From Octopus vulgaris (taxonomy: Eukaryota), in the NCBI GenBank assembly GCA_951406725.2, contig OX597827.1:81344001-81408000 (forward strand): a stretch of 64,000 nucleotides of DNA. The letters run 5' to 3'. Under the pieces are notes generated by a model. That model had not been told where the DNA came from and searched no databases. It saw only the letters and a program-made list of their open reading frames with translations. This document shows positions 20,835 through 59,510 of this stretch, in pieces (within the stretch, counting starts at the first letter, position 1; each line of letters starts with the position of its first letter). Both the position numbers and the translations under genes were made by a program.

Positions 20835-23258
20835 ATGGAAGTAGGCTGTGTGTGGAATACATACTTACTTGCAAATGTCCTCAATCTATTACTACACAGT
20901 TGTGTCTGTGTAGATCTGAGCTATCATGTAGAAGAAGAAAGCAGTCCCTTTACTTTTGTTGGGGATATTGCTGCTGACACACAGATGGAAGAAATGGACT
21001 CTCTTGTGGGAAATAACTTCATCACATACAACCAAATGCAACAGCAATGGACAGAGAATTCACATTTATTCAACGTCACACAAGATGGTAAATTGTACAC
21101 GGCTCAAACATTGGATGCTGAGAAACTGTGTACATATGAATCAGAGTGTGTTAGATACATCAAAGTTGCTGTACATAGAAGGAAGACATTTTTGAAAGTT
21201 ATTAAAATTAAAGTAATTATAGAAGACATTAACGATCACAGCCCTGAGTTTCCTGAGACACAACTGAACATTACATATGATGAAGATGATGGAGAAGGAG
21301 CCGAAAGATTAATTCCCGAAGCCTTCGACAAAGATGTTGGAATGGAAAACTCAGAAGTTACATACAAATTGAAGAAACAATTTAGTGATCCATTTATATT
21401 GTCTGTGAGGAAAACTATCACTGGAGGGGCAAAGATAGGAATTGTTCTTGGAGACAAACTAGACAGAGAGATACAAGATAGTTACAATCTAGAAGTGATA
21501 GCTAATGATGGAGGACAACCTTCAAAACAAGGAATTCTACATGTTCATATAAAAATAATTGATGTGAATGATAACTCACCAGTTTTTTCAAAACATATTT
21601 ACAATATTTCCATCAAAAATACACATCCTAACAACAACCCTATTTTGACATTGTCTGCAAAAGACCCAGATTCTGGCAATAATGGTAAAGTGTCTTATTT
21701 TATGAGTTCAAAAACACCAGAACGTACAAGAAGACATTTCAGACTGAACCAACAAACTGGGGAATTATTTGTAGAAAAACCATTAACATCACAAACAAAG
21801 AATATTCTCAAGATGTATGTGGAGGCAAAAGATGGAGGGAATCCTTCTTTAAATTCCTTTGCCATTGTACGGGTGAATATTCTCAATGAAAAGAACCATC
21901 CCCCCAAAATAGGGATCAATTTTGTGTCTGAATTGAAGAAGGACACAGCAGCTATTTACGAAGGAACTAAAGTGGGCAGTTATCTAGCTTATGTGAATGT
22001 GGTGGACAATGATTTTGGAGCAAATGGAGAAGTGAGTTGTAAATTAGAACATGATAAAGTTGTCCTCTCACATTTAGGATCAAAGGAATACAAGATTACT
22101 CTGCAGAAACCACTTGACAGAGAAAAATTAGACCATTTTAACATGAGAATTGTGTGTGAAGACAATGGAAGCCCTGCTTTGAAGACGGAGAGAAAGATCT
22201 CAATCCAAGTAATGGATGTGAATGATGTGCAACCGCAATTTACCAAAGATACATTCCACTTCCTCACCTATGAGAATGGTAAAGCAAACTTTCCTATAGG
22301 TTTTATCAATGCCACTGACCCAGACCTGGCAAGTGCTGGTCAACTGACGTTCTCACTGTTGAGTAAAGACAGAAATAACATACCGTTCCAGGTGAGTGAT
22401 TATGGTTTTATTACCAGCAACATACCATTGGACAGAGAAGAAGAAGACATGTATAAGTTTGAGGTTTTTGTCAAAGACAATGGTAAACCGTCGTTGAATA
22501 ACACAGCGAATGTTGTTGTTGAGGTTTTAGACAGAAACGACAATAATCCGTATTTCATCTACCCTACAACTGACCCTTTCCATATCAATGTCCACTACCG
22601 CCCGCAAAGTACCAATGCCATCACTGTGATTAGAGCGTCTGACAGAGACAGTCATTTAAATGCGTTCCTCAAATATGGAATACTTGACGGTAACAATAAA
22701 CGCTTGTTTACACTCAACTCTTTAACTGGTCAAATGTCTTTCTCACGTGCACCTCATCTCAACGATGCTGGCTCATACGAACTGGTGCTTGTGGTCAAGG
22801 ATTCCGGTAGCCCAGTGTTGTCAGCCACAACTACTGTGTCTTTGTCATTAAGGGTCACTAACAAGACATCGGCACCGATGCCGACTGTCCACTTAGAGAA
22901 GAACAGAACACTGGACGTACCATTATTGATTATCCTTGTAGTAGCAGCTGTAATAGTAGCTGTGGTGATTGTAGTGTCGATCACACTGTGTATTGTGAAA
23001 TGTAGCAGTGGTCAGTCTCGCTCTGCCAAAAGCACTAGGAAAGGTGTTAATAGGTCAGCTATATGTAACAGAATTGATCAACCTTTACCGTGTCAGAGCA
23101 GCAGTATTCCTGGTACCCCAGTGAGGTACTCTTCTGAGATGAATAATAGAAACATGCCATTTGTGGAATGTAAGGAAGATTTCTACCCGCAGTATGAGTC
23201 TCAGATTGATTGGTCAAACGTGGGTTCCTTGGAGAAGAGTCCACCCAATACAATATTG
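20835..23258 (+). CDS. Pcdh: Protocadherin unit 1, main coding exon (signal peptide, EC1-EC6, TM, cytoplasmic part; 808 codons)
   Basis: Linkers DINDHSP, DVNDNSP, NEKNHPP, DVNDVQP, DRNDNNP; LDRE and A.D.G.P motifs; EC1 C-x5-C; TM LLIILVVAAVIVAVVIVVSITLCIV. Acceptor ttcag|A at 20802, phase-0 donor TTG|gtaagt at 23259. Confidence 0.95.
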
Positions 23259-23888
23259 GTAAGTATAATTTTACAAAAAACACCTCATTAACACCACCAC
23301 CACAGCCACTACATCCATTGCATGTCACCTTGGAGAACTATCTATTACTATAGACTTGAGTCGACCAAAGACTTGTGAGTAGATTTGGTTGAAAGAAACT
23401 GAGAGAAGCCCCCTTTTATATGTATGTATATATTAATATGTGTGCATCTTTGTGTCTTGATCTGGTGAAACAAATCGCATGAGCCCAGTAGTTAGCAGGA
23501 TTTATCTGGATTTACCTTCTCTTAGACGACCTGCTAAAGAGCTGAAGGGTTTCATCTGCCCTGGGCTTGTTATGATGTCTGTAAATTATCTCGATGCCAT
23601 TCCATGAAATGCTAATTAACCCATGACCATGATTTAGGTGGGTGCTACTACCTGGGGTCAAAGTAGATCTGGTATCAATAGAGGCTAAGAAATAGTCCCA
23701 CACTTCTCAAAACTGGAACTTCTGAAGAAGGCCCCCTCTAACCGATGCACTTTCAAGACAAGACAAAGGCCTCTAATACATTGGGTCACCATGAAAGCTG
23801 TCAGATATATTGTCTGGCATACATTTGAGGTGACATACTTTAATCAATGTTCTGTTAAACTCTTTCTCTCTTTCTTTCTCCATTCCAG

Positions 23889-23912
23889 TTACCAACAAGA
23901 ATTAAAAAATAA
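23889..23912 (+). CDS. Pcdh: Unit 1 terminal coding exon (LPTRIKK*)
   Basis: Long polypyrimidine acceptor ctctttctctctttctttctccattccag|TTA CCA ACA AGA ATT AAA AAA TAA; phase matches the donor. Confidence 0.65.
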   Translation, partial: LPTRIKK

Positions 23913-25592
23913 AACCACATTTCTGCCAAGGAAAAAAGATATTGTTACACAGACAGACTCTGGAATATTCTGTGAGGATCTTACCATCTTACCATAGTGG
24001 AATATTTGATGGACACATTCTTAACAACACACACACAAACACACACACTAGAATCACAAACACAGACACACATAAGACTGTAGTTGTACACACACACCTA
24101 CACACATTACATCAATGCACACACAGAAAGACACATTAACACATTCATACAAATTTTCACCCTATGTGTATACACACACAAACACACTTTATCCCCATGC
24201 TAATATCCAGTTTTTCCTATACATTCCTAGCTAGGCTTGAACCCATTCAACTCTATATCACACAATTTGTTGCATTCCTTTGCTGTCTTCTTTCTCAGGT
24301 TCCCATCTCCCTCTGTCTCTCTTGGATTTCCTCTCCCCCAGACTCCTTCCAGTTCCTCCAACGACATCCTTACTCAACTGCAACCATCTATTTACATCTC
24401 AGATCTACACAACCACACCCATGTCATTTCTACCAAACACCTAGCCCCTACCTCCCCGTTTCTGTACTACACCTGATATTCCTTTAGCCAGGTTTCCTTT
24501 CATCTAATCTCTCTCTTCTTGCTCAATACTCACCAAAATTACACAAGACAGTGGGGATTACTTGCTTCCTTTCTTACCAACTTCTACATCTGAATGTTCA
24601 ACATTCAATACCTTTGTCTTATTGCTAAGCAGTACTTTTTTTTTGTAATACAAGACTAACAAGCAATCTACACATCATTTGCAGTGAGATTACTTTTGTT
24701 GCCAGCAGTGATAAAAGAACCCTGACCTTCTTTTACTGTAGTTTTCTTCTGGCAACAATGCACTCAGGACACACTCGTCTACTATTGATTGTGCTTCATT
24801 CAATTGGTGGGTGTTGGGACACAAAAACCAATGCCCAGCTATCCCCCAAAACCAGTCTCTAACAATATCCCTACTTAAATGCTGATAAATATTCTGATAG
24901 TCTAATAATTCATCAAAGCATACGATATAGTTATCACAGGCTGTTAGCTGATGATGATGATGATGATATATATATATATATATAAACACACATATACATA
25001 TATATACTTACATATATGATAATATATATATTCATATATATCTGTATACAGATATAATATATATATAGATATATATGTATATACACACATACACATACAT
25101 ATGTAGATATACACACATATACACAGATATAATTATATATATAAATATATTTATATATAAAAGTATACATATATAATAAGTGTGTGTGTGTGTGTATAAA
25201 GTATAATCTGTCAGAAGGCAGCCAAGAGGTAAAAAGAGAGACAAACCATCAGGCAGGTGACTAAAGACTAGCCACATGCAACCATACATAAATATACATA
25301 TATAAATATTTACATACAATCATGTTTTTAAACACAACATATACGTATCCTCTATTGTATATCTATATACAACAACACACCAACTCGTTTCCCAACACAA
25401 CTGATAGTTTTACTACACATCACACATCGTTACAACACACCAGCATTACACAACACTCCATTGTTATACTATAAACCATACAACTACAAACTGTGTATAT
25501 TTACACAGCACACAGTCTATACACAGCTCTTATGACACACACACATCACTGCAGTATATGTGTAGAAGCAGTGTGTGTGTGTGTGTGTGTGT

Positions 25593-25691: not shown

Positions 25692-25751
25692 GACACACCA
25701 CTAGACACTCCCTCACACACTGCCACACTGATTATGGATGAGACAATGGAG
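25593..25751 (+). other. Unit 2 leader exon (5' end approximate)
   Basis: Same block as unit 1; uATG at 25734; GAG|gtaagt. Confidence 0.7.
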
Positions 25752-27054
25752 GTAAGTCTACATCTATCTTCTTTCATTTCCCATCTTTCCTCTTTAATAT
25801 CAGGTGAAAATATATAAGAGACAAGAGAACACCAAAGGGACATTCAGAGAAACACCCTTATATCACTCACAAATATCAGCAAATATTTTACTCACAACAT
25901 ACAACTTCACTGGGCAAAATACTAACTATTATTATTATTATTACTATTATTAGATTATTTAATAATCCAGTGTCATTTCACAAATATTCTGGTTCTATAT
26001 TGATAGAGTTTATAATAATTGTTATTGTTTTAGTCTCCTATGTTGTTGGTTCGGTGAAATTAGATGCAAAGTTTGTCTCACTAAATCTCATTTTTCACAG
26101 GAAATCTCCATTTTGTCTTCACAACATTCCGTCTCTTCTCTTTAGCCAGATTATTTCATTTGTAGATTTCCTGCAGACACACTAACAATATATCATTATA
26201 TTCCCAGAAATATTTCTTACTTAATATTTCTCTATTCATTTTATCATATCACAATGTATAAATGATGTTCTAAAAGCATTTATAGAAACGATTTAACGAA
26301 GGAGGTCTTCATAATGAATCTATAATCACAGAGTAGCAGATATCGTTCTGATGTCAGACATGGTTGTTTGAGGGATTGTGTGAGCAATTTGTTGTGGAAA
26401 ATATATTTTAGTGTCAAAGTGAAGACAACAAGACATAGAAATACAAGTGGATCTTTTTTTTCTGTGGTGTGTGTGGATTAGTAATGTTCAAAAAATAATA
26501 ATAATATTAATAATGATAGCCATTCGTTAGACACATTGTTGTATATTGTGAATAGCAGCAGACATTTTGCTGTGATACAGAGTCATTTAGTGATTAATTT
26601 TCTTACGTACATATATATATATATATATATATCTGTGTTTGGTTCTGTCAGTATTTATTGTTTAAGATATCGTTCAGTGTATATATTAACATTTCAGCAT
26701 GACCTATACATTGTATATTGTTAATTTAGTTTATAATCACTGGTGTATATATTTTTAAACATGGCCATATAATGATGAGAAATCTTGCTTGTTGAAGCGT
26801 TTTCTTTCTGTTGTTCTTCAATTTCTTATATACACTCGTCATTATCTTTCACTAATTATATATTTGTTTGTGAATCACAAACTGTATGTTTAGAGTTATT
26901 CTATATTGACATTTGTAAATTTGTTGAATAGTCTTCAGTACAGAATGTATATTTACTGTGTATAGTATTCAGAAGTGAGTGTATACATTAATTCTCCAAA
27001 ACTATATCTGTGAGACTACTAACTATATAAATACACACACACCTACATATATAA

Positions 27055-27400: not shown

Positions 27401-27530
27401 GGCCATTTCCAACGGAAGGGACCAAAACACTGAAGCCCAACTCTGTTCTCACCAAAATGGGATGACTTTAAGTTATTAACTTGAAGAAATCCTGTCTTTT
27501 AATTTGGATATTGAAGAATTCCTACTTTTG
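27401..27530 (+). other. Unit 2 second 5'UTR exon
   Basis: tattttag|GGCC ... TTTG|gtaagg, 130 nt. Confidence 0.65.
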
Positions 27531-28708: not shown

Positions 28709-31132
28709 ATGGAAGTAGGCTGTGTGTGGAATACATACTTACTTGCAAATGTCCTCAATCTATTACTACACAGTTGTGTCTGTGTAGATCTGAGCTATCA
28801 TGTAGAAGAAGAAAGCAGTCCCTTTACTTTTGTTGGGGATATTGCTGCTGACACACAGATGGAAGAAACGGACTCTCTTGTGGGAAATAACTTCATCACA
28901 TACAACCAAATGCAACAGCAATGGACAGAGAATTCACATTTATTCAATGTCACACAAGATGGTAAATTGTACACGGCTCAAACATTGGATGCTGAGAAAC
29001 TGTGTACATACGAATCAGAATGTGTTAGATACATCAAAGTTGCTGTACATAGAAGGAAGACATTTTTGAAAGTTATTAAAATTAAAGTAATTATAGAAGA
29101 CATTAATGATCACAGCCCTGAGTTTCCTCAAAAAGAAATAAATATGACATTTGATGAGCGTGATGGAGAAGGTGCTGAAGAATTAATTCCAGATGCCTTT
29201 GACAAAGATGTTGGAATGGAAAACTCTGAAATTACATATAAATTAAAGAAACAATTTAGCGATCCATTTATATTGTCTGTGAGGAAAACTATCACTGGAG
29301 GGGCAAAGATAGGAATTATTCTTGGAGACAAACTAGACAGAGAAATACAAGATAGTTACAATCTAGAAGTGATAGCTAATGATGGAGGACAGCCTTCGAA
29401 ACAAGGAATTTTACATGTTCATATAAAAATAATTGATGTGAATGATAACTCACCAGTTTTTTCACAACATATTTACAATATTTCCATCAAAAATACACAT
29501 CCTAACAACAACCCTATTTTGACATTGTCTGCAAAAGACCCAGATTCTGGCAATAATGGTAAAGTGTCTTATTTTTTTAGTTCAAAAACACCAGAACGCA
29601 CAAGACAGTATTTCAGACTGAACCAACAAACTGGGGAATTATTTGTAGAAAAACCATTAACATCACAAACAAAGAATATTCTCAAGATGTATGTGGAGGC
29701 CAAAGATGGAGGGAATCCTTCTTTAAATTCCTTTGCCATTGTACGGGTGAATATTCTCAATGAAAAGAACCATCCCCCCAAAATAGGGATCAATTTTGTG
29801 TCTGAATTGAAGAAGGACACTGCAGCTATTTATGAAGGAACTAAAGTGGGCAGTTATCTAGCTTATGTGAATGTGGTGGACAACGATTTTGGAGCAAATG
29901 GAGAAGTGAGTTGTAAATTAGAACATGATAAAGTTGTCCTCTCACATTTAGGATCAAAGGAATACAAGATTACTCTGAAGAAACCACTTGACAGAGAAAC
30001 ATTAGACCATTTTAACATGAGAATTGTGTGTGAAGACAATGGAAGCCCTGCTTTAAAGACGGAGAGAAAGATCTCAATCCAAGTAATGGATGTGAATGAT
30101 GTGCAACCGCAATTTACCAAAGATACATTCCACTTCCTCACCTATGAGAATGGTAAAGCAAACTTTCCTATAGGTTTTATCAATGCCACTGACCCAGACC
30201 TGGCAAGTGCTGGTCAACTGACGTTCTCACTGTTGAGTAAAGACAGAAATAACATACCGTTCCAGGTGAGTGATTATGGTTTTATTACCAGCAACATACC
30301 ATTGGACAGAGAAGAAGAAGACATGTATAAGTTTGAGGTTTTTGTCAAAGACAATGGTAAACCGTCGTTGAATAACACAGCGAATGTTGTTGTTGAGGTT
30401 TTAGACAGAAACGACAATAATCCGTATTTCATCTACCCTACAACTGACCCTTTCCATATCAATGTCCACTACCGCCCGCAAAGTACCAATGCCATCACTG
30501 TGATTAGAGCGTCTGACAGAGACAGTCATTTAAATGCGTTCCTCAAATATGGAATACTTGACGGTAACAATAAACGCTTGTTTACACTCAACTCTTTAAC
30601 TGGTCAAATGTCTTTCTCGCGTGCACCTCATCTCAACGATGCTGGCTCATACGAACTGGTGCTTGTGGTCAAGGATTCTGGAAGCCCAGTGTTGTCAGCC
30701 ACAACTACTGTGTCTTTGTCATTAAGGGTCACTAACAAGACATCAGCACCGATGCCGACTGTCCACTTAGAGAAGAACAGAACACTGGACGTACCATTAT
30801 TGATTATCCTTGTAGTAGCAGCTGTAATAGTAGCTGTGGTGATTGTAGTGTCGATCACACTGTGTATTGTGAAATGTAGCAGTGGTCAGTCTCGCTCTGC
30901 CAAGAACGCTAGGAAAGGTGTTAATAGGTCAGCTATATGTAACAGAATTGATCAACCTTTACCGTGTCAGAGCAGCAGTATTCCTGGTACCCCAGTGAGG
31001 TACTCTTCAGAGATGAATAATAGAAACATGCCATTTGTGGAATGTAAGGAAGATTTCTACCCGCAGTATGAGTCTCAGATTGATTGGTCAAACGTGGGTA
31101 CCCTGGAGAAGAGTCCACCCAATACAATATTG
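28709..31132 (+). CDS. Pcdh: Protocadherin unit 2, main coding exon (808 codons)
   Basis: Same architecture as unit 1; acceptor at 28676, donor gtaagt at 31133. Confidence 0.95.
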
Positions 31133-34944: not shown

Positions 34945-35004
34945 GACACACCACTAGACACTCCCTCACACACTGCCACACTGATTATGGATGAGACAAT
35001 GGAG
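34844..35004 (+). other. Unit 3 leader exon (5' end approximate)
   Basis: uATG at 34987; GAG|gtaagt. Confidence 0.7.
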
Positions 35005-35859
35005 GTAAGTCTACATCTATCTTCTTTCATTTCCCATCTTTCCTCTTTAATATCAGGTGAAAATATATAAGAGACAAGAGAAAACCAAAGGGACATTCAG
35101 AGAAACACCCTAATATCACTCACAAATATCAGCAAATGTTTTACTCACAACATACAACTTCACTGGGCAAAATACTAACTATTATTATTATTATTATTAT
35201 TATTAGATTATTTAATAATCCAGTGTCATTTCACAAATATTCTGGTTCTATATTGATAGAGTTTATAATAATTGTTATTGTTTTAGTCTCCTATGTTGTT
35301 GGTTAGGTGAAATTAGATGCAAAGTTTGTCTCACTAAATCTCATTTCTCACAGGAAATCTCCATTTTGTCTTCACAACATTCCGTCTCTTCTCTTTAGCC
35401 AGATTATTTCATTTGTAGATTTCCTGCAGACACTCTAACAAAATATCATTATATTCCCAGAAATATTTCTTACTTAATATTTCTCTATTCATTTTATCAT
35501 ATCACAATGTATAAATGATGTTCTAAAAGCATTTATAGAAACGATTTAACGAAGGAGGTCTTCATAATGAATCTATAATCACAGAGTAGCAGATATCGTT
35601 CTGATGTCAGACATGGTTGTTTGAGGGATTGTGTGAGCAATTTGTTGTGGAAAATATATTTTAGTGTCAAAGTGAAGACAACAAGACATAGAAATACAAG
35701 TGGATCTTTTTTTCTGTGGTGTGTGTGGATTAGTAATGTTGAAAATAATAATAATAATATTAATAATGATAGCCATTCGTTAGACACATTGTTGTATATT
35801 GTGAATAGCAGCAGACATTTTGCTGTGATACAGAGTCATTTGGTGATTAAATTTCTCAC

Positions 35860-35905
<46 letters not shown>

Positions 35906-36302
35906 GTGTTTGGTTCTGTCAGTATTTATTGTTTAAGATATTGTACAGTGTATATATTAACATTTCAGCATGAGCAATATGTTGTATATTGTTAACTTAG
36001 TGTATAATCACCGGTGTATATATTTTTAAATATGCTTGTTGAACCTTTTCTTTCTGTTGTTCTTCAATTTCTTATATACACTCGTCATTATCTTTCACTA
36101 ATTATATATTCGTTTGTGAATCACAAACTGTATGTTTAGAGTTATTCTATATTGAAATTTGTAAATTTGTTGAATAGTCTTCAGTACAGAATGTATATTT
36201 ACTGTGTATAATGTTTAGAAGTGAGTGTATACATTAATTCTCCAAAACTATATCTGTGAGATGACTAACTATATAAATATACACACACCTACATATATAA
36301 AT

Positions 36303-36649: not shown

Positions 36650-36779
36650 GGCCATTTCCAACGGAAGGGACCAAAACACTGAAGCTCAGCTCTGTTCTCA
36701 CCAAAATGGGATGACTTTAAGTTATTAACTTGAAGAAATCCTGTCTTTTAATTTGGATATTGAAGAATTCCTACATTTG
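36650..36779 (+). other. Unit 3 second 5'UTR exon
   Basis: tattttag|GGCC ... TTTG|gtaagt, 130 nt. Confidence 0.65.
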
Positions 36780-38070: not shown

Positions 38071-40494
38071 ATGGAAGTAGGCTGTGTGTGGAATACATAC
38101 TTACTTGCAAATGTCCTCAATCTATTACTACACAGTTGTGTCTGTGTAGATCTGAGCTATCATGTAGAAGAAGAAAGCAGTCCCTTTACTTTTGTTGGGG
38201 ATATTGCTGCTGACACACAGATGGAAGAAACGGACTCTCTTGTGGGAAATAACTTCATCACATACAACCAAATGCAACAGCAATGGACAGAGAATTCACA
38301 TTTATTCAATGTCACACAAGATGGTAAATTGTACACGGCTCAAACATTGGATGCAGAGGAACTGTGTACATACGAATCAGATTGTGTTAGATACATCAAA
38401 GTTGCTGTACATAGAAGGAAGACATTTTTGAAAATTATTAAAATTAAAGTAATTATAGAAGATATTAATGATCACAGCCCTGAGTTTCCTCAGAGTGAGA
38501 TAAATCTGACATTTGGTGAGCGTGATGGGGAGGGTGCTGAAGGATTGATTCCAGAAGCCTTTGACAAAGATATTGGAATGGAAAATTCTGAAATTACATA
38601 TAAATTGAAGAAACAATTTAGTGATCCATTTATATTGTCTGTGAGGAAAACTATCACTGGAGGGGCAAAGATAGGAATTATTCTTGGAGACAAACTAGAC
38701 AGAGAAATACAAGATAGTTACAATCTAGAAGTGATAGCTAATGATGGAGGACAACCTTCAAAGGAAGGAATTTTACAAGTTCATATAAAAATAATTGATG
38801 TGAATGATAACTCACCAGTTTTTTCAAAACATATTTACAATATTTCCATCAAAAATACACATCCTAACAACAACCCCATTTTGACATTGTCTGCAAAAGA
38901 CCCAGATTCTGGCAATAATGGTAAAGTGTCTTATTTTTTGAGTTCAAAAACACCAGAACGCACAAGACAGTATTTCAGACTGAACCAACAAACTGGAGAA
39001 TTATTTGTAGAAAAACTATTAACATCACAAACAAAGAATATTCTCAAGATGTATGTGGAGGCAAAAGATGGTGGGAATCCATCCTTAAATTCCTTTGCCA
39101 TTGTACGGGTGAATATTCTCAATGAAAAGAACCATCCCCCCAAAATAGGGATCAATTTTGTGTCTGAATTGAAGAAGGACACTGCAGCTATTTACGAAGG
39201 AACTAAAGTGGGCAGTTTTCTAGCTTATGTGAATGTGGTGGACAATGATTTTGGAGCGAATGGAGAAGTGAGTTGTAAATTAGAACATGATATAGTTGTC
39301 CTCTCACATTTAGGATCAAAGGAATACAAGATTACTCTGAAGAAATCCCTTGACAGAGAAACATTAGACCACTTTAACATGAGAATTGTGTGTGAAGACA
39401 ATGGAAGCCCTGCTTTGAAGACGGAGAGAAAGATCTCAATCCAAGTAATGGATGTGAATGATGTGCAACCGCAATTTACCAAAGATACATTCCACTTCCT
39501 CACCTATGAGAATGGTAAAGCAAACTTTCCTATAGGTTTTATCAATGCCACTGACCCAGACCTGGCAAGTGCTGGTCAACTGACGTTCTCACTGTTGAGT
39601 AAAGACAGAAATAACATACCGTTCCAGGTGAGTGATTATGGTTTTATTACCAGCAACATACCATTGGACAGAGAAGAAGAAGACATGTATAAGTTTGAGG
39701 TTTTTGTCAAAGACAATGGTAAACCGTCGTTGAATAACACAGCGAATGTTGTTGTTGAGGTTTTAGACAGAAACGACAATAATCCGTATTTCATCTACCC
39801 TACAACTGACCCTTTCCATATCAATGTCCACTACCACCCGCAAAGTACCAATGCCATCACTGTGATTAGAGCGTCTGACAGAGACAGTCATTTAAATGCG
39901 TTCCTCAAATATGGAATACTTGACGGTAACAATAAACGCTTGTTTACACTCAACTCTTTAACTGGTCAAATGTCTTTCTCGCGTGCACCTCATCTCAACG
40001 ATGCTGGCTCATACGAACTGGTGCTTGTGGTCAAGGATTCTGGAAGCCCAGTGTTGTCAGCCACAACTACTGTGTCTTTGTCATTAAGGGTCACTAACAA
40101 AACATCAGCACCGATGCCGGCTGTCCACTTAGAGAAGAACAGAACACTGGACGTACCATTATTGATTATCCTTGTAGTAGCAGCTGTAATAGTAGCTGTG
40201 GTGATTGTAGTGTCGATCACACTGTGTATTGTGAAATGTAGCAGTGGTCAGTCTCGCTCTGCCAAGAGCACTAGGAAAGGTGTTAATAGGTCAGCTATAT
40301 GTAACAGAATTGATCAACCTTTACCGTGTCAGAGCAGCAGTATTCCTGGTACCCCAGTGAGGTACTCTTCAGAGATGAATAATAGAAACATGCCATTTTT
40401 GGAATGTAAGGAAGATTTCTACCCGCAGTATGAGTCTCAGATTGATTGGTCAAACGTGGGTACCCTGGAGAAGAGTCCACCCAATACAATATTG
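38071..40494 (+). CDS. Pcdh: Protocadherin unit 3, main coding exon (808 codons)
   Basis: Same architecture; acceptor at 38038, donor at 40495. Confidence 0.95.
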
Positions 40495-41849: not shown

Positions 41850-41873
41850 TTACCAACAAGAATTAAAAAATAA
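41850..41873 (+). CDS. Pcdh: Unit 3 terminal coding exon (LPTRIKK*)
   Basis: ctccattccag|TTACCAACAAGAATTAAAAAATAA. Confidence 0.65.
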   Translation, partial: LPTRIKK

Positions 41874-43536: not shown

Positions 43537-43687
43537 GCAGCAGACTACAGCAGCAGAAACAACAGCAGCAGTAGTTACAGCCTGAGATCCACATCTCTAC
43601 TACCACACACACACACACACACAGAGTGACACACCACTAGACACTCCCTCACACACTGCCACACTGATTATGGATGAGACAATGGAG
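43537..43687 (+). other. Unit 4 leader exon (5' end approximate)
   Basis: uATG at 43670; GAG|gtaagt. Confidence 0.7.
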
Positions 43688-44534
43688 GTAAGTCTACATC
43701 TATCTTCTTTCATTTCCCATCTTTCCTCTTTAATATCATGTGAAAATATATAAGAGACAAGAGAAAACCAAAGGGACATTCAGAGAAACACCCTTATATC
43801 ACTCACAAATATCAGCAAATGTTTTACTCACAACATACAACTTCACTGGGCAAAATACTAACTATTATTATTATTATTAGATTATTTAACAATCCAGTGT
43901 CATTTCACAAATATTCTGGTTCTATATTGATAGAGTTTATAATAATTGTTATTGTTTTAGTCTCCTATGTTGTTGGTTCGGTGAAATTAGATGCAAAGTT
44001 TGTCTCACTAAATCTCATTTCTCACAGGAAATCTCCATTTTGTCTTCACAACATTCCGTCTCTTCTCTTTAGCCAGATTATTTCATTTGTAGATTTCCTG
44101 CAGACACTCTAACAAAATATCATTATATTCCCAGAAATATTTCTTACTTAATATTTCTCTATTCATTTTATCATATCACAATGTATAAATGATGTTCTAA
44201 AAGCATTTATAGAAACGATTTAACGAAGGAGGTCTTCATAATGAATCTATAATCACAGAGTAGCAGATATCATTCTGATGTCAGACATGGTTGTTTGAGG
44301 GATTGTGTGAGCAATTTGTTGTGGAAAATATATTTTAGTGTCAAAGTGAAGACAACAAGACATAGAAATACAAGTGGATCTTTTTTTCTGTGGTGTGTGT
44401 GGATTAGTAATGTTGAAAATAATAATAATAATATTAATAATGATAGCCATTCGTTAGACACATTGTTGTATATTGTGAATAGCAGCAGACATTTTGCTGT
44501 GATACAAAGTCATATGGTGATTAATTTTCTTACG

Positions 44535-44579
<45 letters not shown>

Positions 44580-45014
44580 GTGTGTGTTTGGTTCTGTCAG
44601 TATTTATTGTTTAAGATATTGTACAGTGTATATATTAACATTTCAGCATGAGCTATACATTGTATATTGTTAACTTAGTTTATAATCACTGGTGTATACA
44701 TTTTTAAACATGGCTATATAACGATGAGAAATCTTGCTTGTTGAAGCCTTTTCTTTCTGTTGTTCTTCAATTTCTTATATAAATATACACACACCTACAT
44801 ATATAAATATATAAATATACATATATATATATATATCTATATATATATATATATATATATATATAGATATATATATATGTACATATATACATACACACAG
44901 AACATTCTCAATGAATGTGATTCATCTCTCATAGAACTATAATGGTTCATAAGAATTGTTATAAATCTGTATCTGCCAAAACTACACTTGTCTGTTAGAC
45001 TATTTGTCTGTCTG

Positions 45015-45171: not shown

Positions 45172-45301
45172 GGCCATTTCCAACGGAAGGGACCAAAACA
45201 CTGAAGCCCAACTCTGTTCTCACCAAAATGGGATGACTTTAAGTTATTAACTTGAAGAAATCCTGTCTTTTAATTTGGATATTGAAGAATTCCTACTTTT
45301 G
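45172..45301 (+). other. Unit 4 second 5'UTR exon
   Basis: tattttag|GGCC ... TTTG|gtaagg, 130 nt. Confidence 0.65.
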
Positions 45302-46850: not shown

Positions 46851-49274
46851 ATGGAAGTAGGCTGTGTGTGGAATACATACTTACTTGCAAATGTCCTCAA
46901 TCTATTACTACACAGTTGTGTCTGTGTAGATCTGAGCTATCATGTAGAAGAAGAAAGCAGTCCCTTTACTTTTGTTGGGGATATTGCTGCTGACACACAG
47001 ATGGAAGAAACGGACTCTCTTGTGGGAAATAACTTCATCACATACAACCAAATACAGAGACAAAGAACAGGAAATTCACATTTGTTTAATGTCACACAAG
47101 ATGGTAAATTGTACACGGCTCAAACATTGGATGCAGAGAAACTGTGTACATACGAATCAGATTGTGTTAGATACATCAAAGTTGCTGTACGTAGAAGGAA
47201 GACATTTTTGAAAGTTATTAAAATTAAAGTAATTATAGAAGACATTAACGATCACAGCCCTGAGTTTCCTCAAGAAGAAATAAATCTGACATTTGGTGAG
47301 CGTGATGGGGAGGGTGCTGAAGGATTAATTCCAGATGCCATTGACAAAGATATTGGAATGGAAAACTCTGAAGTTACATACAAATTGAAGAAACAATTTA
47401 GTGATCCATTTATATTGTCTGTGAAGAAAACCATCACAGGAAGAGCAAAGATCGGAATTATTCTTGGAGACAAACTAGACAGAGAAATTAAAGATAGTTA
47501 CAATCTAGAAGTGATAGCTAATGATGGAGGGCAACCTTCAAAACAAGGAATTCTACATGTTCATATAAAAATAATTGATGTGAATGATAACTCACCAGTT
47601 TTTTCAAAACATATTTACAATATTTCCATCAAAAATACACATCCTAACAACAACCCTATTTTGACATTGTCTGCAAAAGACCCAGATTCTGGCAATAATG
47701 GTAAAGTGTCTTATTTTTTTAGTCCGGAAACACCAGAACGTACAAGAAGACATTTCAGATTGAACCAACAAACTGGGGAATTATTTGTAGAAAAACCATT
47801 AACATCAAATACAAAGAATATTCTCAAGATGTATGTGGAGGCGAAAGATGGAGGGAATCCATCCTTAAATTCCTTTGCCATTGTACGGGTGAATGTTCTC
47901 AATGAAAAGAACCATGCTCCTGAAATTGATATAAATTTTGTGTCTGAATTGAAGAAGGACACTGCAGCTATTTATGAAGGAACTAAAGTGGGCAGTTATC
48001 TAGCTTATGTGAATGTGGTGGACAACGATGTTGGAGCAAATGGAGAAGTGAGTTGTAAATTAGAACATGATAAAGTTGTCCTCTCACATTTAGGATCAAA
48101 GGAATACAAGATTACTCTGAAGAAATCCCTTGACAGAGAAACATTAGACCATTTTAACATGAGAATTGTGTGTGAAGACAATGGAAGCCCTGCTTTAAAG
48201 ACGGAGAGAAAGATCTCAATCCAAGTAATGGATGTGAACGATGTGCAACCGCAATTTACCAAAGATACATTCCACTTCCTCACCTATGAGAATGGTAAAG
48301 CAAACTTTCCTATAGGTTTTATCAATGCCACTGACCCAGACCTGGCAAGTGCTGGTCAACTGACGTTCTCACTGTTGAGTAAAGACAGAAATAACATACC
48401 GTTCCAGGTGAGTGATTATGGTTTTATTACCAGCAACATACCATTGGACAGAGAAGAAGAAGACATGTATAAGTTTGAGGTTTTTGTCAAAGACAATGGT
48501 AAACCGTCGTTGAATAACACAGCGAATGTTGTTGTTGAGGTTTTAGACAGAAACGACAATAATCCGTATTTCATCTACCCTACAACTGACCCTTTCCATA
48601 TCAATGTCCACTACCGCCCGCAAAGTACCAATGCCATCACTGTGATTAGAGCGTCTGACAGAGACAGTCATTTAAATGCGTTCCTCAAATATGGAATACT
48701 TGACGGTAACAATAAACGCTTGTTTACACTCAACTCTTTAACTGGTCAAATGTCTTTCTCGCGTGCACCTCATCTCAACGATGCTGGCTCATACGAACTG
48801 GTGCTTGTGGTCAAGGATTCTGGTAGCCCAGTGTTGTCAGCCACAACTACTGTGTCTTTGTCATTAAGAGTCACTAACAAGACATCAGCACCAATGCCAA
48901 CTGTCCACTTAGAGAAGAACAGAACACTGGACGTACCGTTATTGATTATCCTTGTAGTAGCAGCTGTAATAGTAGCTGTGGTGATTGTAGTGTCGATCAC
49001 ACTGTGTATTGTGAAATGTAGCAGTGGTCAGTCTCGCTCTGCCAAGAGCACTAGGAAAGGTGTTAATAGGTCAGCTATATGTAACAGAATTGATCAACCT
49101 TTACCGTGTCAGAGCAGCAGTATTCCTGGTACCCCAGTGAGGTACTCTTCTGAGATGAATAATAGAAACATGCCATTTGTGGAATGTAAGGAAGATTTCT
49201 ACCCGCAGTATGAGTCTCAGATTGATTGGTCAAACGTGGGTACCCTGGAGAAGAGTCCACCCAATACAATATTG
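46851..49274 (+). CDS. Pcdh: Protocadherin unit 4, main coding exon (808 codons)
   Basis: Same architecture; acceptor at 46818, donor at 49275. Confidence 0.95.
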
Positions 49275-51410: not shown

Positions 51411-51434
51411 TTACCAACAAGAATTAAAAAATAA
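51411..51434 (+). CDS. Pcdh: Unit 4 terminal coding exon (LPTRIKK*)
   Basis: ctccattccag|TTACCAACAAGAATTAAAAAATAA. Confidence 0.65.
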   Translation, partial: LPTRIKK

Positions 51435-53005: not shown

Positions 53006-53065
53006 GACACACCACTAGACACTCCCTCACACACTGCCACACTGATTATGGATGAGACAATGGAG
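52905..53065 (+). other. Unit 5 leader exon (5' end approximate)
   Basis: uATG at 53048; GAG|gtaagt. Confidence 0.7.
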
Positions 53066-53243
53066 GTAAGTCTACATCTATCTTCTTTCATTTCCCATCT
53101 TTCCTCTTTAATATCATGTGAAAATATATAAGAGACAAGAGAAAACCAAAGAGACATTCAGAGAAACACCCTTATATCACTCACAAATATCAGCAAATGT
53201 TTTACTCACAACATACAACTTCACTGGGCAAAATACTAACTAC

Positions 53244-53278
<35 letters not shown>

Positions 53279-53931
53279 GATTATTTAACAATCCAGTGTC
53301 ATTTCACAAATATTCTGGTTCTATATTGATAGAGTTTATAATAATTGTTATTGTTTTAGTCTCCTATGTTGTTGGTTAGGTGAAATTAGATGCAAAGTTT
53401 GTCTCACTAAATCTCATTTCTCACAGGAAATCTCCATTTTGTCTTCACATCATTCCGTCTCTTCTCTTTAGCCAGATTATTTCATTTGTAGATTTCCTGC
53501 AGACACTCTAACAATATATCATTATATTCCCAGAAATATTTCTTACTTAATATTTCTCTATTCATTTTATCATATCACAATGTATAAATGATGTTCTAAA
53601 AGCATTTATAGAAACGATTTAACGAAGGAGGTCTTCATAATGAATCTATAATCACAGAGTAGCAGATATCGTTCTGATGTCAGACATGGTTGTTTGAGGG
53701 ATTGTGTGAGCAATTTGTTGTGGAAAATATATTTTAGTGTCAAAGTGAAGACAACAAGACATAGAAATACAAGTGGATCTTTTTTTCTGTGGTGTGTGTG
53801 GATTAGTAATGTTCAAAATAATAATAATATTAATAATGATAGCCATTCGTTAGACACATTGTTGTATATTGTGAATAGCAGCAGACATGTTTGCTGTGAT
53901 ACAGAGTCATTTGGTGATTAATTTTCTTGTG

Positions 53932-53967
<36 letters not shown>

Positions 53968-54523
53968 GTGTTTGGTTCTGTCAGTATTTATTAAGATATT
54001 GTACAGCGTATATATTAACATTTCAGCATGAGCAATATGTTGTATATTGTTAATTTTGTGTATAATCACTGGTGTATATATTTTTAAACATGGCTATATA
54101 ATGATGAGAAATCTTGCTTGTTGAAGCCTTTTTTTCTCGTTTATCTTCGATGATCAAATTTCTTATATACAGTCATGTTCATATTTCTCTAATTATAGAT
54201 TTGCATAACGCAAACTGTGTATTTAGAGTTTATTGTGTATTGAACAGTGTAAAGATGTAGAATATTCCGTAGGATAGGGAGAATATTTACAGTTTAATGT
54301 ATAATAAAAGTGTATATATTTTCTACATATTTCTATCAGTGAGACTTCTATGTATCTCCTGCAGTCTATATGACATACAAAACTGTCTATAACTGCACAT
54401 TTACAGTATATAATGTTTAGCAGTGAGTGTATATGCTAAACCCTCATAAACTATGTCAGGGAGACGTCTAAAATGACATAAATCAGAAAGAAGCATAGTC
54501 TAAAGAATAGAGCAGTAATTATT

Positions 54524-55489: not shown

Positions 55490-56057
55490 ACATCTCATAA
55501 ATAATGTGTTTTATTTATACTTCTCTTATTTTTCAAAATTAAGATAAACGAAGTTCTTTTTAATCTAAACTATTCTCTCTTTCATTTTCTACAATGCTCT
55601 TCCTTCTGTCTGGGAGACTTGCAAGGCCCTTCTTCCAAAATTCACTTGTCTGCGACAAAAAATACTCTTCCAGTTCTATTCTAAACTCGTCTAGAGAATT
55701 CATATTTTTCCCATCCAAGTGATTTTGAAGACTGTGGAATAAATGATAATCAAATGGGGCAATGTCCAGTGAATATGGTGGATGGGGCATCGTTTCCCAT
55801 TCAAACTGTTCCAGCCTTTGGAATGTCATCCTCACTGTCTGTGGCCAAGCATTATCCTGATGGAAGATCACTTTTCATCTCGAAACCAGAGACGGTCATT
55901 TTTCTTCTAACACTCACTTAAGCCATTCAAGCTGCCAACAGTGGATCTCCTTTGTTATCATTTGGTTTGGGTTTAAAAGTTCAAAGTGGACTAAACCTTT
56001 CATATCCCATCAAACAGATAACAACACCTTATGTGGGTGAAGACCTTCTTTAGCCTG
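55490..56057 (-). mobile_element. Mariner transposase 3' fragment in unit 5 intron 2
   Basis: IFHQDNAWPQT...WETMPHPPYSLDIAPFDYHLFHSLQNHL; boundaries approximate. Confidence 0.85.
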
Positions 56058-56336
56058 TTAATGCTTAACTTATATTTGTATAATGAGTACCTCTACACAG
56101 AGACACACAGAATAAGGGAGTGGGGGAGAAGAAGAAAAAGACGAAGAATTGGAAGAAGAAGAAGAAGAGGAAGCAACAGCAGCAGCAGCCTGTTGAGATG
56201 ATCACTTTGGGATGAAAGTTTTCTTTTAATGAAAAAACAGTGTCTGATGTTAAGTTGAAGTTAACTTTGATAATATCGTCTGATAAAATTATTTGAGGTT
56301 TGAGTAAGTAATTACTAATTAGAAAGATATATATAT

Positions 56337-56412
<76 letters not shown>

Positions 56413-57086
56413 GTAGCATCACTATCATCCTTGAATTTTGATGTTGAATAAAAGAATTGACGTTAATGCTTCTATAGTTAAATAAGAATAATTCTGTCAA
56501 TTCATGGAAAGACTAGTTAATAGAAAAGAGATTGAGATATCTATATTTTGAAGAAAATATGCAATTGTGACAAGAAATTTCAGACCATTCCATGTTTTAA
56601 AAATTTCTCCCCAGTGCATTCCTTACATAAGGGAGACAATCAAACATTGCACCACAATATATGCAGTTACCTCCCGTATTTATTTTCAGTATCTCCACGT
56701 TTAAGGAGATATTTAAGACTACTTCGAAGAAGTCTGAAATTCTTATCAAATACACTATTGCCATGCTCTTGGTGGATATAAATCACTGGATTTATATCCA
56801 ACTTTACAAGCATGTACCATGTTCTTTCTAATAAGTAAAACTGCATCATCTGTAATAAAGGGTTCTCTTGATAGAAAACAATTTAGTGAATAATGCCACG
56901 ACATACACTAAGACATATCATAAATGTTCACTCCTTTCTTTCAGCTTTACCATAATTGACATGAAATTTTTAACAATTTCAACAAAAAATTCTTTTTAAA
57001 ATCTCAAACATTCAGTGAAATTTTTCAATAAAAATTTTCTTCTGTAATTTCAGATAAACTCACGAGATATGATTTAACATTCTGTG

Positions 57087-59510
57087 ATGGAAGTAGGCTG
57101 TGTGTGGAATACATACTTACTTGCAAATGTCCTCAATCTATTACTACACAGTTGTGTCTGTGTAGATCTGAGCTATCATGTAGAAGAAGAAAGCAGTCCC
57201 TTTACTTTTGTTGGGGATATTGCTGCTGACACACAGATGGAAGAAACGGACTCTCTTGTGGGAAATAACTTCATCACATACAACCAAATGCAACAGCAAT
57301 GGACAGAGAATTCACATTTATTCAATGTCACACAAGATGGTAAATTGTACACGGCTCAAACATTGGATGCAGAGAAACTGTGTACATACGAATCAGATTG
57401 TGTTAGATACATCAAAGTTGCTGTACGTAGAAGGAAGACATTTTTGAAAATTATTAAAATTCAGGTTATTATAGAAGACATTAACGATCACAGCCCTGAG
57501 TTTGCTCAGACACAACTGAATATTACATTTGATGAACGTGATGGAGAAGGAGCCGAAAGATTAATTCCAGATGCCTTTGACAAAGATGTTGGAATGGAAA
57601 ACTCTGAAATTACATATAAATTGAAGAAACAATTTAGTGATCCATTTATATTGTCTGTGAGAAAAACCATCACAGGAAGAGCAAAGATAGGAATTATTCT
57701 TGGAGAAAAACTAGACAGAGAAATACAAGATAGTTACAATCTAGAAGTGATAGCTAATGATGGAGGGCAACCTTCAAAAGAAGGAATTTTACAAGTTCAT
57801 ATAAAAATAATTGATGTTAACGATAACTCACCAGTTTTTTCAAAACATATTTACAATATTTCCATCAAAAATACACATCCTAACAACAACCCTATTTTGA
57901 CATTGTCTGCAAAAGACCCAGATTCTGGCAACAATGGTAAAGTGTCTTATTTCTTTAGTCCGGAAACACCAGAACGTACAAGAAGACATTTCAGACTGAA
58001 CCAACAAACTGGGGAATTATTTGTAGAAAAACCATTAACATCACAAACAAAGAATATTCTCAAGATGTATGTGGAGGCGAAAGATGGAGGGAATCCTTCT
58101 TTAAATTCCTTTGCCATTGTACGGGTGAATATTCTCAATGAAAAGAACCATCCTCCCAAAATAGGGATCAATTTTGTGTCTGAATTGAAGAAGGACACTG
58201 CAGCGATTTACGAAGGAACTAAAGTGGGCAGTTTTCTTGCTTATGTGAATGTGGTGGACAACGATGTTGGAGCAAATGGAGAAGTGAGTTGTAAATTAGA
58301 ACATGATAAAGTTGTCCTCTCACATTTAGGATCAAAGGAATACAAGATTACTCTGAAGAAACCACTTGACAGAGAAAAATTAGACCATTTTAACATGAGA
58401 ATTGTGTGTGAAGACAATGGAAGCCCTGCTTTAAAGACGGAGAGAAAGATCTCAATCCAAGTAATGGATGTGAATGATGTGCAACCGCAATTTACCAAAG
58501 ATACATTCCACTTCCTCACCTATGAGAATGGTAAAGCAAACTTTCCTATAGGTTTTATCAATGCCACTGACCCAGACCTGGCAAGTGCTGGTCAACTGAC
58601 GTTCTCACTGTTGAGTAAAGACAGAAATAACATACCGTTCCAGGTGAGTGATTATGGTTTTATTACCAGCAACATACCATTGGACAGAGAAGAAGAAGAC
58701 ATGTATAAGTTTGAGGTTTTTGTCAAAGACAATGGTAAACCGTCGTTGAATAACACAGCGAATGTTGTTGTTGAGGTTTTAGACAGAAACGACAATAATC
58801 CGTATTTCATCTACCCTACAACTGACCCTTTCCATATCAATGTCCACTACCGCCCGCAAAGTACCAATGCCATCACTGTGATTAGAGCGTCTGACAGAGA
58901 CAGTCATTTAAATGCGTTCCTCAAATATGGAATACTTGACGGTAACAATAAACGCTTGTTTACACTCAACTCTTTAACTGGTCAAATGTCTTTCTCGCGT
59001 GCACCTCATCTCAACGATGCTGGCTCATACGAACTGGTGCTTGTGGTCAAGGATTCTGGTAGCCCAGTGTTGTCAGCCACAACTACTGTGTCTTTGTCAT
59101 TAAGGGTCACTAACAAGACATCAGCACCGATGCCGACTGTCCACTTAGAGAAGAACAGAACACTGGACGTACCATTATTGATTATCCTTGTAGTAGCAGC
59201 TGTAATAGTAGCTGTGGTGATTGTAGTGTCGATCACACTGTGTATTGTGAAATGTAGCAGTGGTCAGTCTCGCTCTGCCAAGAGCACTAGGAAAGGTGTT
59301 AATAGGTCAGCTATATGTAACAGAATTGATCAACCTTTACCGTGTCAGAGCAGCAGTATTCCTGGTACCCCAGTGAGGTACTCTTCAGAGATGAATAATA
59401 GAAACATGCCATTTGTGGAATGTAAGGAAGATTTCTACCCGCAGTATGAGTCTCAGATAGATTGGTCAAATGTGGGTACCCTGGAGAAGAGTCCACCCAA
59501 TACAATATTG
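57087..59510 (+). CDS. Pcdh: Protocadherin unit 5, main coding exon (808 codons)
   Basis: Same architecture; acceptor at 57054, donor gtaagt at 59511. Confidence 0.95.

What the first reader, a model, noticed from the sequence alone, without database searches (positions are those of the whole stretch)
20835..59510. Invertebrate protocadherin array whose diversity is confined to EC1-EC4 while EC5-EC6, TM and tail are homogenized: a candidate neuronal identity code
Seen: five 808-codon exons align without indels. The strongest variation is at the start of EC2 (PETQLNITYDEDDGEGAERLIPEAF / PQKEINMTFDERDGEGAEELIPDAF / PQSEINLTFGERDGEGAEGLIPEAF / PQEEINLTFGERDGEGAEGLIPDAI / AQTQLNITFDERDGEGAERLIPDAF) and in EC3 (YFMSSKT..RRHF / YFFSSKT..RQYF / YFLSSKT..RQYF / YFFSPET..RRHF). 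Downstream of the EC4 LDRE motif only a handful of singleton changes exist. Established: vertebrate clustered Pcdhs form antiparallel EC1-EC4 trans dimers with specificity largely in EC2/EC3, and use conserved EC5/EC6 for cis interactions; cephalopod Pcdh expansions arose independently. Inference: this array has converged on the same division of labour (variable recognition surface, constant cis and signalling module).
Basis: partly seen in the sequence, partly recalled or inferred. Interest (0 to 1): 0.85.

Follow-up and report, generated by a model that had tools for sequence, protein, structure and literature searches.

The report
Octopus protocadherins with matched recognition patches
In an octopus array of near-identical protocadherin genes the membrane-side half is almost the same in every copy, most likely through gene conversion, while two distant outer patches change together with opposite charges, which likely marks a self-recognition surface of the kind vertebrate neurons use.

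Summary
Observation confirmed. The five exons are the first 5 of 12 tandem whole-gene copies of an octopus protocadherin. Diversity sits in EC1-EC4. EC5 has no change even at synonymous sites, and stalk/TM differ 32% between Octopus and Argonauta but under 1.5% within each array. So the 3' half is homogenised, most likely by gene conversion, not conserved. A second Octopus array and four Argonauta arrays repeat the pattern; it parallels vertebrate clusters.

No positive selection was detected (omega 0.2-0.5; M2a not favoured). The vertebrate cis signature is missing: the V560 position is Arg/Lys in 218 of 220 octopod proteins.

New here: an EC1 patch (codons 68-79) and an EC4 patch (357-361) covary perfectly and with complementary charge (5 of 5 vs 0 of 7) while everything between is shuffled. 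This repeats in Argonauta and, at other EC1/EC4 sites, in the second array (11 of 12 vs 0 of 17). That is the pairing expected of an antiparallel EC1-EC4 trans dimer. EC2:EC3 matching was not detected. Binding, specificity and per-neuron expression are untested.

The parts
20835..23258 (+). Copy 1 large coding exon (ATG to donor): signal peptide, EC1-EC6, stalk, TM, most of tail; acceptor 33 nt upstream of the ATG
28709..31132 (+). Copy 2 large coding exon
38071..40494 (+). Copy 3 large coding exon
46851..49274 (+). Copy 4 large coding exon (the only R-type EC1 / E-D EC4 copy inside the window)
57087..59510 (+). Copy 5 large coding exon
23889..23912 (+). Copy 1 own terminal coding exon (LPTRIKK-stop), giving 815 aa
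   Evidence: matches public model P0001
33141..33164 (+). Copy 2 terminal coding exon
41850..41873 (+). Copy 3 terminal coding exon
51411..51434 (+). Copy 4 terminal coding exon
61239..61262 (+). Copy 5 terminal coding exon
20835..20994 (+). 5' invariant stretch (codons 1-53), shown for copy 1
21252..21326 (+). EC2 hotspot, codons 140-164 (strands A and B), shown for copy 1; 20 of 25 codons variable
21699..21737 (+). EC3 C-D loop, codons 289-301, aligned to the vertebrate Phe-X10-Phe loop; shown for copy 1
22224..22599 (+). 376-nt invariant run covering all of EC5, shown for copy 1
22632..22634 (+). Arg600, aligned to gamma-B Val560 of the vertebrate cis interface; shown for copy 1
47052..47087 (+). 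EC1 C-D loop patch, codons 68-79 (I68 R70 R72 G74 in copy 4; M68 Q70 W72 E74 in copies 1, 2, 3, 5)
47919..47933 (+). EC4 strand-A patch, codons 357-361 (E358 D360 in copy 4; K358 G360 in the others), covarying with the EC1 patch
25701..26940 (+). Non-coding block repeated upstream of each of copies 1-10 (also 18008-19296, 34954-36186, 43637-44781, 53015-54267, 63805 onward), 91-95% identical by BLAST, with a splice-donor motif (here after 25751); inferred promoter and first 5' UTR exon of the next copy
   Evidence: no RNA evidence
27401..27530 (+). Inferred second 5' UTR exon of copy 2 (acceptor and donor motifs; counterparts 36650-36779 and 45172-45301)
   Evidence: no RNA evidence

Best explanation
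This is a tandem array of complete octopus protocadherin genes whose signal peptide/early EC1 and EC5-to-tail are made uniform, most likely by gene conversion, while short patches on the predicted EC1-EC4 trans-binding faces stay diverse and are likely kept in matched EC1/EC4 pairs by selection for self-binding. Shown: 12 whole-gene copies, each large exon but one followed by an LPTRIKK-type exon in the region; mosaic copies; species-specific 3' halves; EC2 variants shared between Octopus and Argonauta; island-to-island EC1-EC4 linkage. Inferred: two molecules on facing cells bind antiparallel (EC1 on EC4, EC2 on EC3) as vertebrate protocadherins do. A Q70/W72/E74 + K358 copy and an R70/R72 + E358/D360 copy would each self-pair with opposite charges and repel one another, so conversion events that change one patch alone would be removed. 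This would split the array into at least two binding classes, with EC2/EC3 variants possibly refining them. The vertebrate EC5-EC6 cis zipper is probably not used, so the proteins would work like delta-protocadherin trans dimers.
For: Conversion: synonymous-variable codons 56 of 440 in EC1-4 vs 14 of 341 beyond (p=2e-5), with the same syn:nonsyn ratio (p=0.22). Copies 11 and 12 differ from copy 1 by 29-52% in signal peptide/EC1 and 19% in EC3 but 0-0.3% in EC5. Their Argonauta counterpart P0003 carries the Argonauta EC5 (0.3% from neighbours, 8.6% from copy 12). Between-species Fst 0.92-0.98 for EC5-TM but 0.20 and 0.03 for the EC2 hotspot. Matched patches: 5 of 5 vs 0 of 7 in array A; r2>=0.6 with E358 only at codons 68-79 and 357-361, at most 0.28 in codons 80-355; family-wise p 0.023; the EC1 type changes 5 times on the EC2-3 tree, as shuffled labels do. 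Argonauta orthologues 3 of 3 vs 0 of 4 (family-wise p 0.04). Array B: EC1 F-G hairpin type with EC4 G372, 11 of 12 vs 0 of 17 (family-wise p 0.0012). PMC5001838 describes an EC4 strand-A loop to EC1 F-G loop contact. Neutral conversion simulations reached the observed linkage in 9 of 300 (A) and 0 of 125 (B) runs. Partial Mantel EC1 face vs EC4 face given EC2-3: p<0.05 in 5 of 6 arrays. Faces per PMC7082078; charge-based EC1:EC4 exclusion in vertebrates per PMC5106212. Cis signature absent.
Against: For copies 1-10 alone the family-wise test is not significant (p 0.11 by minimum p, 0.30 by maximum r2). The pair was spotted in array A before testing. The non-face control (EC1 other vs EC4 other) was also significant in 2 of 5 testable arrays, and the Argonauta 26-member array gave p 0.054. 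In array B, EC1-EC3 and EC3-EC4 also show family-wise linkage (p 0.006, 0.009). In Argonauta B the G372 link holds in only 4 of 8 vs 0 of 15, and EC1-EC3 linkage is strong there. EC2 face vs EC3 face covaries in only 1 of 6 arrays. The EC3 F-G face is almost invariant in array A (pN 0.004), and array B's most variable EC3 part (D-E strands) is off the canonical face. No positive selection was detected. K/E358 aligns to vertebrate EC4 strand A (about 318), not to the K338/R340 partner on strand B. The simulation is crude (uniform conversion rate, few runs).
Confidence: 0.62

Rival explanations
1. Neutral conversion gradient with relaxed surface loops: conversion tracts start in the identical ends and rarely cross the diverged middle, exposed strands tolerate change, and the copies are functionally interchangeable (a dosage array). 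EC1-EC4 linkage comes from repeated replacement of the central EC2-EC3 block on older backbones.
For: Omega 0.2-0.5 everywhere and a neutral site class of 16-31% suffices. Synonymous diversity rises in the same places as amino-acid diversity. The non-face control covaries in two arrays. 3 of 12 and 7 of 29 copies are broken or were not intact by my filter.
Against: A central swap should link all of EC1 with all of EC4, but linkage is confined to two small islands. The islands survive amid species-specific flanks in two genera, carry complementary charges, and were rarely reproduced by neutral simulation. EC2 variants are shared across species while flanks are fixed apart.
Confidence: 0.2
2. 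One reading: a vertebrate-type barcode with EC2/EC3 under diversifying selection and a constant EC5/EC6 cis module building promiscuous cis dimers and zippers.
For: The domain pattern matches vertebrate clusters (PMC4978886). Y532 and A570 equivalents are kept in this array. EC1-4 identities of 92-96% with 8-25 differences on face segments among the five copies are near the beta6/beta8 case, where 92% identity and five interface residues give strict specificity (PMC8901172). O. vulgaris neurons express about 21 PCDH each (PMC9712504).
Against: The V560 equivalent is R/K in 218 of 220 and the L555 equivalent D in 175 of 220 fetched proteins. V560R blocks gamma-B6 cis dimers. No omega>1 class was found, and EC2:EC3 matching was seen in only 1 of 6 arrays.
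Confidence: 0.1
3. The EC1-EC4 coupling is real but reflects something other than a homophilic trans contact, such as a heterophilic partner, a different dimer geometry or a lateral contact unique to cephalopods.
For: The coupled EC4 residues are one strand away from the vertebrate partner residues, and array B varies most on the non-canonical EC3 D-E side.
Against: Both coupled pairs lie on the faces and loops described for the canonical antiparallel dimer, and the predicted monomer matches protocadherin EC1-4 rods, in which EC1 and EC4 of one chain cannot touch.
Confidence: 0.06
4. Assembly or polishing artefact: reads from different copies were mixed and flattened the near-identical regions.
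For: Single-base indels in three copies of array A suggest imperfect base accuracy.
Against: The same pattern appears in Argonauta and O. sinensis protein models, each Argonauta array with its own uniform 3' half. Introns diverge within about 15 nt of the donor.
Confidence: 0.02

Closest known systems
Coleoid protocadherin clusters (O. bimaculoides chr 14, D. pealeii chr 15; PMC9068888; O. vulgaris, PMC6339937)
   Same: Tandem, same-direction, whole-gene duplicates without shared constant exons; homogenisation by gene conversion already proposed in general terms. These very genes carry public models named 'protocadherin beta-15-like [Octopus vulgaris]'.
   Different: The passages read give no domain-level map of conversion, no EC1-EC4 coupling and no cis-signature test; PMC6339937 says nothing is known of adhesion specificity.
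Vertebrate clustered protocadherins alpha/beta/gamma (PMC4978886, PMC5001838, PMC5106212, PMC8901172)
   Same: Six EC domains; low dS in EC5/EC6 and part of EC1, high in EC2/EC3; variable Phe-X10-Phe-equivalent loop; charge-matched EC1:EC4 determinants are known there.
   Different: Not orthologous; no variable/constant exon splicing; V560/L555 cis residues replaced; here the strongest matched signal is EC1:EC4 within a subfamily, and no positive selection was detected.
Non-clustered delta-2 protocadherins (Pcdh8/10/17/18/19; PMC7082078)
   Same: Six EC domains; top structure and sequence match is Xenopus Pcdh8.1 (6vg1); lack of the clustered cis signature; antiparallel EC1-4 dimer is the expected mode.
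   Different: Those are single dispersed genes; this is a conversion-shuffled tandem array of 92-96% identical ectodomain tips.

Membership tests
Protocadherin (cadherin superfamily) | Signal peptide, six EC repeats with calcium motifs, single TM, EC1 of Cadherin_2 type, ectodomain in one large exon | tested here: met
Coleoid clustered protocadherins | Tandem same-strand whole-gene duplicates, closest relatives in octopods | tested here: met
Coleoid clustered protocadherins | No shared constant 3' exons | tested here: met
   12 LPTRIKK-type terminal exons in the 12-copy region, one after each of the five window copies; genomic only, splicing not observed
Vertebrate clustered protocadherins | Variable first exons spliced to common constant exons (alpha, gamma) | tested here: not met
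Vertebrate clustered protocadherins | EC5-EC6 cis-interface signature (Y532, L555, K558, V560, A570) | tested here: not met
   Y and A kept, but L555->A/D, K558->V, V560->R/K; sequence alignment only
Vertebrate clustered protocadherins | Gene conversion sparing EC2/EC3 | tested here: met
   dS EC2 0.21, EC3 0.11, EC5 0.00 in 8 intact A copies; 0.58, 0.74, 0.03 in 22 B copies
Vertebrate clustered protocadherins | Positive selection on EC2/EC3 sites | tested here: not met
   M1a vs M2a LRT 0.63, 0.0, 0.0; own implementation, single start, one tree despite mosaicism
Vertebrate clustered protocadherins | Antiparallel EC1-EC4 trans homodimer | tested here: inconclusive
   indirect covariation support; no direct structure
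Vertebrate clustered protocadherins | Strict homophilic specificity between isoforms | not testable with these tools
   needs SPR or cell aggregation
Vertebrate clustered protocadherins | Stochastic per-neuron promoter choice (CSE/CTCF) | not tested
   upstream blocks are near-identical between copies; no motif or expression test
Delta-2 protocadherins | Cytoplasmic CM1/CM2 motifs | not tested
   tail is about 90 aa ending LPTRIKK; PMC6339937 reports no evidence of CM motifs in O. vulgaris

The most novel reading that the evidence does not exclude
Octopods evolved their own cell-recognition code in which gene conversion acts as the shuffler: short cassettes (EC1 C-D loop, EC1 F-G hairpin, EC2 A/B strands, EC3 C-D loop, EC4 strand A) are recombined among tandem copies on a uniform chassis, selection keeps only charge-matched EC1/EC4 pairs, old EC2 variants persist across genera, and each copy or class binds only itself in trans without any vertebrate-type cis zipper or shared exon.
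Probability: 0.4. Interest if true: 0.82.

Novelty: new variant of a known kind. Interest (0 to 1): 0.62.

Why it matters
Whether the cephalopod protocadherin expansion gives neurons distinct binding identities has been open since the first octopus genome, and one paper read here states that nothing is known of their adhesion specificity. The array supplies natural, nearly isogenic test pairs: copies 1 and 4 differ by a charge swap at two small patches, so a few mutants decide whether the binding mode and specificity logic converged with vertebrates. The missing cis signature predicts a different way of reading the code than the vertebrate zipper. Strong conversion also means that sequence-distance dates for recent octopod protocadherin bursts (8-14 Ma in PMC9795677) could be too young, and that 3'-end single-cell reads may not separate these copies (inference).

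Tried and rejected
Homodimer prediction of copy 4 EC1-4 gave no verdict; it is not used as evidence. The run search listed no holder on record as RNA, and no reads were laid on the window, so exon joints and expression rest on genomic motifs and public models. Earlier-findings look-up was empty. Positive selection: M2a was not favoured for EC2-3 of array A (8 copies), EC2-3 of array B (22 copies) or the B hotspot. Purifying selection alone as the cause of the constant half was rejected because synonymous sites are equally flat and the region is species-specific. Recent duplication alone was rejected because old terminal paralogues carry the local 3' half. A shared constant exon was rejected. 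The 5' non-coding blocks of array A found no BLAST match in array B's region. EC2:EC3 matched variation was sought and found in only 1 of 6 arrays. Residue numbers printed run one too high; later calls are corrected. Albertin 2015 (PMC4795812) was not held. Wang and Ragsdale 2017 and Noonan 2004 were not read, and no supplements were opened; a domain-level analysis could stand there.


Full report
1. Observation. The window is G000:C14:81344001-81408000. Five open reading frames of 808 codons begin at 20835, 28709, 38071, 46851 and 57087, align without gaps, are preceded by an acceptor 33 nt before the ATG and end at a phase-0 donor. They encode six-EC protocadherins. The best database match is identical and is labelled Octopus vulgaris by its source. 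The quoted peptides are correct. EC1-4 has 105 variable codons of 440 (49 amino-acid changing), EC5 to the exon end 20 of 341 (6), EC5 0 of 105; the 376-nt invariant run was matched by 0 of 10,000 permutations.

2. Anatomy. The array has 12 copies and one fragment within 150 kb. Nine are intact; copies 7, 9 and 11 carry single-base indels. Twelve terminal exons encoding LPTRIKK/R-stop lie in the region, one after each window copy, and each of copies 1-10 has its own repeated upstream block with splice-donor motifs. These are whole-gene duplicates without a shared constant exon, as PMC9068888 states for coleoids (passages). Exon joints are inferred from motifs and public models, not from reads. 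A second array (B, about 51% identical, minus strand, 29 copies in the 350 kb fetched, 22 intact by my filter) lies about 0.7 Mb away. The genome search scored only 40 of 174 candidates, so other arrays in this genome were not examined.

3. Why the 3' half is constant. Synonymous variation falls with amino-acid variation (56 of 440 vs 14 of 341 codons, p=2e-5; ratio unchanged, p=0.22). dS is 0.21 and 0.11 in EC2 and EC3 against 0.00 in EC5 for 8 intact A copies (copy 12 left out), and 0.58, 0.74 and 0.03 for 22 B copies. Copies 11 and 12 differ from copy 1 by 29-52% in signal peptide and EC1 and 19% in EC3, but by 0-0.3% in EC5. Argonauta hians has an orthologous set of 6+1 proteins. Its terminal member resembles copy 12 in EC1 and the EC3 loop, yet its EC5 is 0.3% from its own neighbours and 8.6% from copy 12. 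Between the two species Fst is 0.92-0.98 for EC5, EC6 and stalk/TM; in array A stalk/TM differ by 32% between species and 0-1.4% within. For the EC2 hotspot Fst is 0.20 (A) and 0.03 (B), with 7 and 17 positions sharing two or more states. So the 3' half is homogenised within each array, most likely by gene conversion, and is not frozen by function, while EC2 variants outlive speciation. Of 102 Argonauta sequences (101 proteins, one split), 78 fell in four clusters; all show 37-52% difference in the EC2 hotspot and 0.3-2.0% in EC6. Clusters were defined on EC5, so EC5 itself is circular there. Vertebrate clusters show the same domain pattern (PMC4978886, passages).

4. Selection on the variable part. 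Omega is 0.2 over EC1-4 and 0.3-0.5 in the EC2 hotspot. My own M1a/M2a test found no class above 1 (LRT 0.63, 0.0, 0.0; one start, one tree). Using strands from the AlphaFold monomer (pLDDT 87) and the faces given in PMC7082078 (passages), pN on interface-face segments is 4.0 times that elsewhere in array A (1 of 426 circular shifts as high; omega 0.31 vs 0.15, 7 of 426). In array B it is only 1.5 times (61 of 426), because EC3 D-E is its most variable EC3 part. Segments were drawn after I had seen the data. Variable sites overlap between A and B (rho 0.20; 3 of 428 shifts).

5. Matched EC1 and EC4 patches. In array A the EC1 C-D loop is either M68/Q70/W72/E74 or I68/R70/R72/G74, and EC4 strand A is either K358/G360 or E358/D360. 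All 5 R-type copies (copy 12, with I68/R72, counted among them) have E358/D360 and none of the other 7 has E358 (Fisher p 0.0013). Of 175 informative codons only 68-79 and 357-361 reach r2>=0.6 with E358; the maximum in codons 80-355 and beyond 361 is 0.28. The type changes 5 times on the EC2-3 tree, no fewer than shuffled labels. Family-wise p is 0.023 for 12 copies but 0.11 for copies 1-10 (0.30 by maximum r2). Argonauta repeats it, 3 of 3 vs 0 of 4 (family-wise p 0.04), as do four units of an O. sinensis fused model, 2 of 2 vs 0 of 2 (not independent). In array B a different pair does the same: EC1 F-G hairpin type IIKK with EC4 G372, 11 of 12 vs 0 of 17, 9 changes on the EC2-3 tree, family-wise p 0.0012, although EC1-EC3 (0.006) and EC3-EC4 (0.009) also show weaker linkage. 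In Argonauta B that link is partial (4 of 8 vs 0 of 15), while R117/R118 with P375 is 4 of 4 vs 0 of 19. Neutral duplication-conversion simulations reached the observed value in 9 of 300 (A) and 0 of 125 (B) runs. Partial Mantel tests of EC1 face against EC4 face given EC2-3 gave p<0.05 in 5 of 6 arrays (0.054 in the sixth). The non-face control was significant in 2 of 5 testable arrays, and EC2 face against EC3 face in 1 of 6.

6. Reading of the coupling (inference). EC1 and EC4 of one rod-shaped chain cannot touch, but in vertebrate trans dimers the EC1 C-F-G face packs on the EC4 A-B-E-D face of the partner. The loop after EC4 strand A contacts the EC1 F-G loop (PMC5001838, parts 1-2 of 5), which is array B's pair. 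Gamma-B E41-K338 versus gamma-A R41 separates subfamilies by charge (PMC5106212, section 9; passages). Alpha-7 residue 40 aligns to residue 67 here, next to the patch, but residue 358 aligns to strand A (about 318), not to 338, so this is a neighbouring pair, not the same one. Both octopus states are self-complementary in charge and mutually repulsive, which is what selection for self-binding predicts. A caution on EC2: a variable surface facing a constant partner cannot discriminate, and the EC3 F-G face is nearly constant in array A, so per-copy specificity from EC2/EC3 is not established. Among the five window copies EC1-4 identity is 92-96% with 8-25 differences on face segments; beta6/beta8 are strictly specific at 92% (PMC8901172, passages).

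7. The cis module. Aligned to gamma-B4, Y532 and A570 are kept but L555, K558 and V560 are A, V and R. Across 220 of 254 fetched proteins (length 700-1020) the V560 position is R or K in 218 and L555 is D in 175. V560R blocks gamma-B6 cis dimers, and L555D is listed as a cis-interface mutant. Delta-protocadherins lack this signature and show no cis dimers (PMC7082078, section 16).

8. What is known. Octopod clusters, whole-gene duplication and suspected conversion are in print (PMC9068888; PMC6339937, passages and section 8; PMC9795677, passages). O. vulgaris neurons express about 21 PCDH each (PMC9712504, passages), without evidence for these particular copies. Searches, and passages of PMC13218726, showed no domain-level conversion map, EC1-EC4 coupling or binding assay for cephalopod protocadherins. 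Albertin 2015 was not held; Wang and Ragsdale 2017, Noonan 2004 and all supplements were not read and could hold part of this.

9. Verdict. A real, partly known system: a coleoid protocadherin cluster that works like a vertebrate protocadherin in conversion pattern and probably in trans-binding geometry, but is not a member of the vertebrate clustered family. My odds: conversion about 0.95; antiparallel EC1:EC4 contact under selection about 0.7; discrimination among copies used by neurons about 0.4; vertebrate-type cis zipper about 0.1. New variant of a known kind, interest 0.62.

Noticed in passing
window 9828-10730 (+): 300-aa frame with a YADD motif, resembling a LINE reverse-transcriptase fragment (label from recall, not searched).
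   Followed up: no
window 8547-9697 (-) and 276-755 (+): Frames resembling broken DNA-transposase remnants, hAT-like and Tc1/mariner-like (labels from recall, not searched).
   Followed up: no
G000:C14:81425470-81427893, 81449557-81451982, 81470340-81472777 (L002-L007): Copies 7, 9 and 11 of the array carry single-base indels, several in or beside homopolymers: pseudogenes or base errors.
   Followed up: partly
G000:C14:81511593-81512006 (L011): Isolated 138-codon fragment (end of EC6 to tail) 98% identical to copy 1, after the last full copy.
   Followed up: no
window 25701-26940 and its repeats: The inferred promoter/first-exon block is as uniform as the coding 3' half (0-2.4% difference per 100-nt bin in its core), so regulatory DNA is homogenised too, and copy choice cannot rest on much proximal sequence difference.
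   Followed up: partly
G000:C14:80350001-80700000 (L017-L051): Six array-B copies carry a strongly diverged EC2-EC3 block whose EC2 motif also occurs in a different Argonauta array, and two B copies carry an EC4 patch typical of that other array, hinting at conversion between arrays.
   Followed up: partly
copies 3, 4, 5, 10; codons 104 and 394: A second, weaker EC1-EC4 association (D104 with V394) on a different split of the copies than the main pair.
   Followed up: no
P0121, P0134, P0189 and similar: Several public gene models fuse neighbouring copies into 1,500-5,700-aa proteins named Fat-like or uncharacterised; likely annotation artefacts.
   Followed up: partly
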